Source: a virus. From it: 64,000 nucleotides of DNA. Made by a program: the position numbers and the translations under genes. The stretch covers positions 64,001 to 128,000 of the IMG/VR virus record IMGVR_UViG_3300037524_002067, one strand, 5' to 3'. Shown here piece by piece: positions 10,848-11,071 of this stretch. The notes beneath the pieces were generated by a model that saw only the letters and a list, made by a program, of their open reading frames with translations, did not search any database and was not told the DNA's origin. Position 1 is the stretch's first letter. Each line of letters opens with the position of its first letter.

Positions 10848-11071
10848 TTACCAGTACGGGAATCGAACCCGCATAATTGTTGTGCACGTGCTTTGGAAAA
10901 CTCGCTTCCTTACTTTGTCGTAGACATTTCAGTGCATCCGTAACCATGCAGCACGTTACTCACACCATATTTGCTCAGACTATGCCTTCAACGCTTTCTG
11001 TAGCAAGTCAACAATTTCTCTTTCGAGAACCCTTCGTTTTAGGTTTGTCTTTCCATTTAGACGAACTGGTA
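10848..11071 (-). ncRNA. 224-nt tRNA-like RNA (acceptor, D and T arms with a large structured insertion)
   Basis: TACCAGT/ACTGGTA acceptor, GTCT-AAATGGAA-AGAC D arm, GCGGG-TTCGATT-CCCGT T arm; internal stems AATTGTTG/CAACAATT and ACGTGCT/AGCACGT. Confidence 0.65.

What the first reader, a model, noticed from the sequence alone, without database searches (positions are those of the whole stretch)
10848..11071. 224-nt tRNA-like RNA with a large structured insert
Perfect acceptor, D and T arms enclose about 170 nt. The insert contains a TTCTC-GAAA-GAGAA tetraloop hairpin, a closing stem AATTGTTG/CAACAATT, ACGTGCT/AGCACGT and TGCAT/ATGCA. GAAGGCATAGTCTG and CTGCATGGTTAC resemble the S/P7 and P9 segments of phage group I introns, but there is no room upstream for P4-P6, and simple excision does not obviously rebuild an anticodon arm. 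It lacks the G3.U70 pair of tmRNA. It is a candidate new ncRNA class or an intron relic.
Basis: partly seen in the sequence, partly recalled or inferred. Interest (0 to 1): 0.75.

Follow-up and report, generated by a model that had tools for sequence, protein, structure and literature searches.

The report
Phage copy of RNA-repair tRNA mimic
The 224-base tRNA-shaped gene is real, but it is not an intron: it is a phage-carried relative of a non-decoding tRNA look-alike that soil Bacteroidota keep in front of their RNA-repair (Band-7/RlaP/RtcB) operons, so it probably takes part in the phage-host fight over cut tRNAs.

Summary
Rfam (including Intron_gpI, tmRNA and tRNA) and ARAGORN find nothing there.

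I found 16 homologues.
- Four lie in tRNA arrays of other large phages.
- Twelve lie in Chitinophagales/Saprospiraceae genomes.

Across all 17 sequences the acceptor, D and T stems covary, with 7 of 7 acceptor pairs compensated. Among the phage copies the closing stem, the small hairpin and ACGUGCU/AGCACGU also covary. The third arm has a 7-15 nt loop with an invariant AAAA and no U33, so the RNA cannot decode. A conserved core, UGCAC-Y-GAA ... AGUA-R-GGAAGCG, looks like a loop-E motif, and its Y-R pair covaries.

At least seven bacterial copies sit co-oriented just upstream of Band-7, RlaP, RtcB or PNKP-phosphatase genes, often beside a WYL regulator. Two phage copies lie 1.5-2.3 kb from a Band-7 gene followed by RNA-ligase paralogues.

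In closely related phages from two other studies the element is missing; one contig shows a clean 230-bp skip.

It therefore belongs with the Band-7-associated tRNA-like RNAs predicted in 2016. This scan has already noted bacterial examples on other DNA. The phage-borne form inside a tRNA array appears undescribed. The group I reading is rejected.

The parts
10848..11071 (-). Whole tRNA-framed RNA gene, 224 nt including discriminator A at 10848; no CCA is encoded
   Evidence: CM R2 scores it 160.7 bits.
10845..11074 (.). 230-bp presence/absence unit, flanked by TTG on both sides (10845-10847 and 11075-11077)
   Evidence: A DNA contig of run X5 (11.3 kb, depth 160) joins 10844 to 11075. A contig of run X7 runs from 10847 straight into a tRNA-Trp-like sequence.
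11065..11071 (-). Acceptor stem, 5' strand UACCAGU
   Evidence: Pairs with 10849-10855. All 7 pairs show compensatory changes across 17 sequences.
10849..10855 (-). Acceptor stem, 3' strand ACUGGUA
11047..11062 (-). D arm GUCU-AAAUGGAA-AGAC
   Evidence: 100% of cells paired; 2 of 4 pairs compensated.
11028..11045 (-). Third ('anticodon-like') arm AACCU-AAAACGAA-GGGUU: 8-nt loop, invariant AAAA, no U33
   Evidence: The stem covaries (AUCCU/AGGAU in L083, L084 and L092; CGG/CCG in bacteria). The loop is 7-15 nt and always carries AAAA.
11016..11029 (-). Small hairpin UUCUC-GAAA-GAGAA
   Evidence: Structure is kept while sequence changes: GUCUU/AAGAC in L025 and L092, CUC/GAG in L083 and L084.
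11009..11016 (-). Closing stem of the insert, 5' strand AAUUGUUG
   Evidence: Pairs with 10875-10882. 7-8 bp in all five phage copies, with different sequences.
10875..10882 (-). Closing stem of the insert, 3' strand CAACAAUU
11000..11008 (-). ACUUGCUAC block, invariant in the five phage copies
10967..10999 (-).
   Evidence: Poorly conserved. The other phage copies carry a GGUUG...CAACY hairpin here.
10950..10956 (-). Inner helix, 5' strand ACGUGCU
   Evidence: Pairs with 10886-10892. It covaries: AUCU/AGAU, GAUUAAU/AUUAAUU, UGACC/GGUCA.
10886..10892 (-). Inner helix, 3' strand AGCACGU
10903..10936 (-). Conserved core UGCAC-U-GAA ... (GUC-UAC-GAC hairpin) ... AGUA-A-GGAAGCG; GAA/AGUA resembles a loop-E (bulged-G) motif
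   Evidence: UGCAC and GGAAGCG are near-invariant in 17 sequences. The base before GAA covaries with the base after AGUA: U-A in 11 sequences, C-G in 5.
10856..10872 (-). T arm GCGGG-UUCGAUU-CCCGU
   Evidence: 100% of cells paired; 4 of 5 pairs compensated.
11077..11150 (-). Neighbour: canonical tRNA-Trp(CCA), 5 nt upstream of the element
10684..10769 (-). Neighbour: 86-nt tRNA-Trp(CCA) with a long variable arm
9945..10763 (-). Neighbour: class I Trp/Tyr-type aminoacyl-tRNA synthetase ORF. The listed ORF start overlaps the tRNA, so the true start is probably further in.
   Evidence: Pfam tRNA-synt_1b, E = 1.4e-38.
11154..11747 (-). Neighbour: HNH homing-type endonuclease ORF
   Evidence: PHROG HNH endonuclease, E = 2.5e-19.

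Best explanation
The element is a non-decoding tRNA mimic. It belongs to the family of tRNA-like RNAs that Chitinophagales and Saprospiraceae bacteria encode directly upstream of their Band-7(SPFH)/RlaP/RtcB RNA-repair operons.

Shown:
- Homology to those bacterial RNAs.
- A covarying tRNA frame and covarying insert helices.
- A conserved insert core.
- Linkage of the bacterial copies to repair genes.
- Presence/absence of the cassette among sister phages.

Inferred:
- In the phage the RNA is transcribed with the Ser/Arg/Trp tRNA array.
- It is cut out by the ordinary tRNA processing enzymes, because it has a full 7-bp acceptor stem, a discriminator base and a D/T elbow.
- It then receives CCA.
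- The roughly 150-nt insert, with its loop-E-like core, is the protein-binding part. It would dock a repair component (SPFH scaffold, RNA ligase or RlaP), while the tRNA frame gives stability and a tRNA-like handle. The RNA would thus act as a cofactor or scaffold when tRNAs cut by host anticodon nucleases are healed and resealed.

In this phage it is an optional cassette that sits among homing-endonuclease genes.
For: - Homologues were found by BLAST, pattern scans and covariance models. They score 42-192 bits with model R2.
- Covariation over 17 sequences: 94.8% of cells paired against 74.5% in shuffles; 85 cells changed on both sides against 24.6; slid controls reach only 38-55% paired.
- Phage-specific helices covary. 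The Y-R pair flanking GAA/AGUA covaries.
- Bacterial context:
  - element then Band_7-RlaP-RlaP-RtcB: L129, L158
  - element then Band_7 and RtcB: L130, L143
  - element then RlaP-RlaP-RtcB: L161
  - element then RlaP-RlaP: L160
  - element then a PNKP phosphatase gene: L159
  - a WYL regulator next door at L126, L130, L143 and L161
  - all are co-oriented with the genes downstream.
- A YrlA-like module follows the element in L129 and L130.
- Phage context: G008 and G014 carry a Band_7 gene and 2-3 RNA_ligase (PF09414) paralogues within 1.5-6 kb of the element. G012 has an RlaP gene.
- All five phage copies lie in tRNA arrays, 3-7 nt from neighbouring tRNAs where adjacent. No minus-strand promoter-like or terminator-like site lies inside 10400-11900.
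- The cassette is missing in runs X5 and X7.
- Literature: a Band-7-associated tRNA next to RtcB has been predicted but never validated. RlaP adds nucleotides to damaged RNA 3' ends. Jumbo phages carry RNA-repair sets.
Against: - The window's own phage record (154 kb, estimated 59% complete) encodes no Band_7, RtcB, RlaP, PF09414 ligase or TROVE gene. Here the RNA has no visible phage partner.
- The phage Band_7 proteins are 621-631 aa, appear to have an N-terminal membrane segment, and are only marginally similar to the 367-aa operon SPFH (E = 0.019). Their closeness to the element may be coincidence.
- Two bacterial copies show no repair gene nearby: L144, and the weak match L162.
- One phage copy (L092) lacks the inner helix, and four phage copies have replaced the loop-E-like motif with a plain helix. 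The core is therefore not strictly fixed.
- There is no expression, processing or binding data of any kind.
Confidence: 0.6

Rival explanations
1. Decoy or manipulator. The phage RNA copies the host's repair-operon RNA in order to interfere with a host system rather than to assist repair. It could soak up a host anticodon nuclease, the SPFH complex or the WYL sensor-regulator, or it could redirect host RtcB to phage tRNAs.
For: - No partner gene is seen in the window's phage, whereas likely host lineages carry the whole operon.
- The cassette is optional among sister strains, as is typical of counter-defence genes.
- The genome is full of aberrant tRNA twins.
- A nuclease-inhibitor role has been proposed for YrlA (PMC7790460).
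Against: - Nothing distinguishes this reading from a cofactor role computationally.
- Two phages do have Band_7 and ligase genes nearby.
- The host of this phage is not identified.
Confidence: 0.22
2. Passenger DNA. A piece of a host operon leader was captured into the tRNA array and is carried along by homing endonucleases, with no function in the phage.
For: - Endonuclease genes lie directly or nearly upstream in four of five phage copies.
- There is a presence/absence polymorphism with 3-nt repeats at the edges.
- L092 carries an internal deletion.
Against: - Five phage copies that are 60-81% identical keep every frame helix and most insert helices by compensatory change. That indicates purifying selection within phages.
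- The phage copies form their own group, about 50% identical to the bacterial ones. This argues against recent capture.
Confidence: 0.1
3. A real decoding tRNA interrupted by an intron or insert that is removed to give a working tRNA, for example an Arg(ACG)-like one.
For: - The loop contains ACG.
- A follows G18 G19 in the D loop, where ArgRS reads A20. This rests on my own knowledge of tRNA-Arg identity.
- Copies often sit beside tRNA-Arg and tRNA-Ser genes.
- Related huge phages do have tRNAs with 35-75 nt inserts.
Against: - No U33. The loop varies from 7 to 15 nt, and only AAAA is invariant.
- Bacterial copies have no ACG.
- Removing the insert leaves no standard anticodon loop.
- The Rfam tRNA model and ARAGORN, with introns allowed, do not call it.
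- The insert itself is the most conserved part.
Confidence: 0.05
4. A group I intron or its relic inside a tRNA gene.
For: - AACCU/GGGUU ends in a U-G pair, like a P1 helix.
- It is followed by a GAAA hairpin like P2.
- GAAGGCAUAG recalls J8/7, from my recollection of the Azoarcus intron.
Against: - No Intron_gpI hit at E <= 10.
- No P4-P6 or P7 partner strand.
- The U-G pair is U-A in three homologues, and the 'S-like' segment is not conserved.
- Sister phages lack the whole tRNA-like gene, not just an insert.
- Bacterial homologues are operon leaders.
Confidence: 0.02

Closest known systems
[quoted passage not shown] I know it only through bioRxiv 10.1101/312249 and from memory of the abstract.
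   Same: - A tRNA-shaped, apparently non-decoding RNA.
- The bacterial homologues of the element lie just upstream of a Band-7 gene in RtcB/RlaP operons.
- Never tested experimentally.
   Different: - The original paper and its sequences are not held, so I could not align the two.
- Here the RNA carries a 110-150 nt insert with its own conserved core.
- In Terrimonas it is the first of three tRNA-like modules.
- The window copy is phage-borne, stands in a tRNA array, and has no Band-7 or RtcB gene in the record.
YrlA / bacterial Y RNAs (Rfam RF02553; Chen et al. 2014, PMC4201824)
   Same: - tRNA mimicry with T and D arms.
- Linkage to RtcB repair operons.
- Also found in phages.
- M. smegmatis YrlA is cut by RNase P and receives CCA.
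   Different: - YrlA is permuted: its 5' and 3' ends form the Ro-binding stem. The element has open tRNA ends.
- No YrlA model hit on the element.
- No TROVE/Ro gene in any phage record.
- In the bacterial loci a separate YrlA-like module sits about 170-250 nt downstream.
tmRNA (RF00023)
   Same: - Acceptor and T arm frame a large structured insert.
- The closing stem abuts the T arm, like tmRNA helix P2.
   Different: - C3-G70 instead of G3-U70.
- A full D stem.
- No tag reading frame.
- Only a 15-nt T-arm hit at 13.6 bits.
- The bacterial hosts have a normal tmRNA elsewhere.
Class II tRNAs, and the phage's own long-variable-arm tRNA twins
   Same: Extra structure between the third arm and the T arm; same arrays; same processing signals.
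   Different: The insert is 150 nt rather than 10-20 nt, and the third arm cannot decode.
Group I introns of bacterial tRNA genes (Azoarcus Ile, cyanobacterial Leu)
   Same: Size range; a tRNA setting; a GAAA hairpin after a U-G-closed stem.
   Different: No catalytic core; not inserted in an anticodon loop; no exon restoration; no Rfam hit.

Membership tests
Band-7/RtcB-operon tRNA-like RNA (b7a-tRNA kind) | tRNA-like fold with acceptor, D and T arms | tested here: met
   covarying acceptor (7/7), D and T stems in 17 sequences.
Band-7/RtcB-operon tRNA-like RNA (b7a-tRNA kind) | Encoded next to a Band-7/SPFH gene and an RNA ligase | tested here: inconclusive
   - Met for the bacterial homologues: 7 loci with Band_7, RlaP, RtcB or PNKP genes downstream.
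- Suggestive for phages G008 and G014.
- Not met in the window's own 154-kb record, which is about 59% complete.
Band-7/RtcB-operon tRNA-like RNA (b7a-tRNA kind) | Sequence or structure match to the published b7a-tRNA alignment | not testable with these tools
   PMC5062991 is not held. There is no Rfam family for it.
Group I intron (RF00028) | Covariance-model match and a P3-P9 core with P4-P6 and P7 | tested here: not met
   No hit at E <= 10 on 10600-11300. There is no room or partner strand for P4-P6 or P7 (sequence).
Group I intron (RF00028) | Excision restores a functional host gene | tested here: not met
   No 3' anticodon-stem strand lies before the T arm. Sister phages lack the whole gene.
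tmRNA (RF00023) | G3-U70, D loop without a stem, tag ORF, model match | tested here: not met
   C3-G70. A 4-bp D stem. ARAGORN -m finds none. Only a 15-nt local hit at 13.6 bits against a gathering score of 47.
Decoding tRNA (RF00005) | 7-nt anticodon loop with U33 and a conserved anticodon; model match | tested here: not met
   The loop is AAAACGAA. It is 7-15 nt in homologues, with only AAAA fixed. No tRNA model or ARAGORN call.
YrlA / Y RNA (RF02553) | Ro-binding stem formed by the RNA ends, permuted tRNA module, adjacent rsr gene | tested here: not met
   No YrlA hit on the element or on any phage locus. No TROVE gene.

The most novel reading that the evidence does not exclude
Large phages of Bacteroidota carry, as a mobile cassette inside their tRNA arrays, a trimmed copy of the host's RNA-repair-operon tRNA mimic. 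They use it to take over or disarm the host's SPFH/RtcB RNA-damage response. It would recruit the host ligase to reseal phage and host tRNAs, or blind the host's sensor or nuclease. That would make it an RNA-based counter-defence factor.
Probability: 0.25. Interest if true: 0.8.

Novelty: new variant of a known kind. Interest (0 to 1): 0.6.

Why it matters
The Band-7/RtcB tRNA-like RNAs were predicted in 2016, and nothing in the library I searched shows they have been tested.

This finding adds three things:
- A compact member of the family, 224 nt with open tRNA ends, whose boundaries are defined by a natural 230-bp presence/absence polymorphism.
- A conserved, covarying core motif that is a concrete candidate protein-binding site.
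- Evidence that phages have taken this RNA into their tRNA arrays, in two cases near Band-7 and RNA-ligase genes.

This ties the family to phage-host conflict over tRNA integrity. It also gives natural plus/minus strains and a cultured bacterium, Terrimonas ginsenosidimutans NA20, in which the function could be tested.

Tried and rejected
- Rfam at gathering and at E <= 10, and ARAGORN with introns and tmRNA allowed: nothing on the element.
- BLAST of the window copy and the L025 copy against GenBank phages: no match.
- Own genome: no second copy.
- Pattern scans that gave only chance matches:
  - GAAGGCATAGTCTGAGC
  - TTCGTCTAAATGGAAAGAC
  - GCTGCATGGTTACGGATGC
  - the metagenome scan, where all 42 hits were unrelated
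  - ATGGTT..ACGGATGCAC, which found only the known copy
- Model R1 on ten related huge-phage records: only ordinary tRNAs matched the frame.
- I looked for a parent tRNA among the phage's own 37 tRNAs. None is clearly related.
- A tRNA-Lys link suggested by the R1 hits was dropped.
- Sequencing runs: no RNA holder is listed. The one 'RNA?' run laid (X9) covered only tRNA-Trp-like parts from other organisms, so nothing can be said about expression.
- Kissing-loop ideas (AAAAC with GUUUU) and ACUUGC/GUGAGU or GGUGU/GCACU pairings could not be tested, because both sides are invariant.
- The phage Band-7 protein against the operon SPFH: only E = 0.019, so I do not claim they are the same subfamily.
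- No YrlA-like module in the phage loci.
- The Burroughs & Aravind paper and the Sim et al. review could not be read.

Full report
**1. Observation**

- The acceptor stem is 7 bp: UACCAGU pairs with ACUGGUA, with discriminator A at 10848.
- U8 is present.
- The D arm is GUCU-AAAUGGAA-AGAC, with G18 and G19.
- The T arm is GCGGG-UUCGAUU-CCCGU.
- About 173 nt lie between the D and T arms.

The listed stems UUCUC-GAAA-GAGAA, AAUUGUUG/CAACAAUU, ACGUGCU/AGCACGU and UGCAU/AUGCA are all there. The minimum-energy fold of the 224 nt gives back the cloverleaf frame with the insert as a closed domain (-62.6 kcal/mol, z = -2.27).

ARAGORN, with or without introns and tmRNA search, calls nothing here. Rfam at E <= 10 gives only a 15-nt T-arm match to tmRNA.

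**2. Setting**

The window is part of a 154-kb IMG/VR phage record, estimated 59% complete. The record carries 37 tRNA genes, many as a canonical gene plus a long-variable-arm twin.

On the minus strand the order is:
- an HNH endonuclease ORF
- tRNA-Trp(CCA)
- the element, 5 nt further on
- a long-armed tRNA-Trp(CCA)
- a Trp/Tyr-type synthetase

No promoter-like or terminator-like site on that strand lies within 10400-11900, which fits co-transcription with the array.

**3. A discrete, optional cassette**

I laid public contigs on 10600-11300.
- An 11.3-kb DNA contig of run X5 (depth 160, a few mismatches in the flanks) joins 10844 directly to 11075. It skips 230 bp, which is the whole element plus 3 nt on each side, with TTG repeated at both edges.
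- A contig of run X7, from another study, runs from 10847 straight into a tRNA-Trp-like sequence.
- Runs X1-X4, which probably include the source sample, hold the element.

So sister phages differ by exactly this gene. That argues against an intron inserted into a resident tRNA gene.

**4. Homologues**

BLAST of the insert against related huge-phage records found one true relative, L025 in record G008 (69% identity over 116 nt, E = 2e-8). Conserved blocks from that pair gave patterns and a covariance model (R1). These found three more phage copies, L083, L084 and L092. All of them lie inside tRNA arrays, mostly in the Ser/Arg block.

A stricter pattern on one genome per prokaryote species hit five Bacteroidota genomes: Terrimonas ginsenosidimutans NA20, Ginsengibacter, a Chitinophagaceae MAG and two Saprospiraceae MAGs. 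R1 confirmed these as full-length matches of 185-200 nt.

A second model (R2, from 10 sequences) found seven further bacterial copies. It hit 3 of 151 sampled genomes in the order and 6 of 151 in the family; both counts include Terrimonas itself, and the tool's first-look filter limits recall.

The window copy is 60-64% identical to the other phage copies and about 50% identical to the bacterial ones.

**5. Structure**

On the 17-sequence alignment:
- 94.8% of cells are paired, against 74.5% in shuffles.
- 85 cells are changed on both sides, against 24.6 in shuffles.
- Sliding the partner columns drops pairing to 38-55%.
- All 7 acceptor pairs, 4 of 5 T-stem pairs and 2 of 4 D-stem pairs show compensatory change.

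The alignment was fitted to the model, which favours the structure. The same result appears on plain MAFFT alignments.

Among the five phage copies, read directly from the sequences:

| Helix | Window | Other phage copies |
|---|---|---|
| Third arm | AACCU/GGGUU | AUCCU/AGGAU; GUCC/GGAU |
| Small hairpin | UUCUC/GAGAA | GUCUU/AAGAC; CUC/GAG |
| Closing stem | AAUUGUUG/CAACAAUU | GGGUUUUA/UAAAACUU; GGAUUUUG/CAAAAUCU; GGGAUUUA/UAAAUCUU |
| Inner helix | ACGUGCU/AGCACGU | AUCU/AGAU; GAUUAAU/AUUAAUU; UGACC/GGUCA |

UGCAU/AUGCA is only partly kept.

The loop of the third arm is 7-8 nt in phages and 11-15 nt in bacteria. It always holds AAAA and never a U33-type anticodon loop, so the RNA cannot decode.

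The most conserved part is UGCAC-Y-GAA ... hairpin ... AGUA-R-GGAAGCG.
- Y and R covary: U-A in 11 sequences, C-G in 5.
- GAA opposite AGUA is the consensus of the loop-E (bulged-G) motif. That identification rests on my own knowledge.
- Thirteen of the 17 sequences, including the window copy, have this motif. Four phage copies replace it with a regular helix (CUGAG/CUCAG, CUGAU/AUCAG).

**6. What the bacterial copies sit next to**

In Terrimonas the order is: AAA ATPase, the element, a YrlA-like tRNA module (RF02553, 39 bits, E = 5e-7, below the gathering score), a third tRNA-like stretch, then Band_7/SPFH, RlaP, RlaP and RtcB. Ginsengibacter is alike.

Downstream and co-oriented with the element in other genomes:
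- G058: Band_7, then RtcB.
- G207: Band_7, RlaP, RlaP, RtcB.
- G298: RlaP, RlaP, RtcB.
- G262: RlaP, RlaP.
- G300: a PNKP-type phosphatase.
- WYL regulators lie next door in four loci, and a HEPN gene lies upstream in one.
- Two copies (G122, and the weak match in G285) show no repair gene.

These genomes have an ordinary tmRNA elsewhere.

This is the gene set for which Burroughs and Aravind predicted a 'band 7-associated tRNA' in 2016. It was still unvalidated according to bioRxiv 10.1101/312249. RlaP has since been shown to add nucleotides to damaged RNA 3' ends. Earlier notes of this scan describe large tRNA-mimic RNAs in front of Band-7 genes in many bacteria, including Chitinophagaceae. 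The element corresponds to the first, open-ended module of such a leader.

**7. What the phage copies sit next to**

Phages G008 and G014 encode a 621-631 aa Band_7 protein 1.5-2.3 kb downstream of the element, followed by two or three PF09414 RNA-ligase paralogues. G012 has an RlaP gene.

The phage Band_7 proteins appear to have an N-terminal membrane segment and are only marginally similar to the operon SPFH. I count this as suggestive only.

The window's phage record has none of these genes, but about 40% of its genome is missing.

In four of the five phage copies an endonuclease gene lies directly or almost directly upstream. That fits a mobile cassette.

**8. Reading**

Membership in the repair-operon tRNA-mimic family is well supported.

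The mechanism is inferred in three steps:
- The RNA is released from the array transcript by tRNA processing enzymes through its acceptor stem and elbow.
- A repair protein binds the insert core.
- The RNA serves as cofactor or scaffold, or alternatively as a decoy, in the resealing of tRNAs cut by host nucleases.

The group I, tmRNA and decoding-tRNA readings each fail defining tests.

**9. Novelty**

I found no paper in the held library describing a Band-7-type tRNA mimic in phages. The jumbo-phage survey mentions only Ro/TROVE with its tRNA-like partner. The library is incomplete and the key 2016 paper is not held, so I rate this a new variant of a known, predicted kind.

Noticed in passing
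window 10684-10769 (-), and whole record G000: The phage keeps many tRNAs as pairs: one canonical gene of about 74 nt and one of 85-89 nt with a long variable arm, for Trp, Cys, Ile, Lys, Thr, Asn, Ala and Asp. The 86-nt tRNA-Trp(CCA) beside the element is one of them, and it overlaps the listed start of the synthetase ORF.
   Followed up: no
L015 6644-6789 (+); L008 6557-6674 (-) and 3511-3621 (-): Related huge phages have tRNAs that Rfam still recognises but that carry 35-75 nt inserts. One example is a tRNA-Ile(GAU) with 74 nt inserted after position 37, the canonical archaeal/eukaryal intron site. How these would be removed is unknown.
   Followed up: partly
L015 6212-6292 and 7053-7142 (+): tRNA-like genes with a missing or tiny D arm and a long variable arm. 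They resemble the D-armless tRNA-Arg noted earlier in this window (e1-5863588).
   Followed up: no
L129 1208-1300 and about 1307-1375 (+); L130 1009-1096 and 1113-1175 (+): Downstream of the bacterial element, before the Band_7 gene, lie a YrlA-like permuted tRNA module (39 bits, below the gathering score) and a further tRNA-like stretch. The operon leader therefore holds three tRNA-like modules.
   Followed up: partly
L029 6117-8012 and 8443-11698 (+); L092 2664-4529 and 5696-7047 (+): Phages G008 and G014 encode a 621-631 aa Band_7 protein, apparently with an N-terminal membrane segment, followed by two or three paralogous PF09414 RNA ligases.
   Followed up: partly
L128 6656-7138 (+); L159 7548-8060 (-): One bacterial copy of the element has a HEPN (pEK499_p136) RNase-type gene just upstream. 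Another is followed by a PNKP-type phosphatase instead of Band-7/RtcB.
   Followed up: no
window 17480-17552 (-): A tRNA with anticodon CUA, which ARAGORN labels Pyl.
   Followed up: no
window 13566-14864 (-): A 432-aa ORF with an ArdC N-terminal domain and a weak M78 peptidase match, at the head of the tRNA block. It looks like an anti-restriction protein.
   Followed up: no
L010 3229-3305 (+): A stretch with a good T arm and a UCU-containing stem-loop but a poor acceptor stem and D arm, between tRNA-Arg and tRNA-Trp. Neither tool calls it. It may be a decayed or aberrant tRNA.
   Followed up: no
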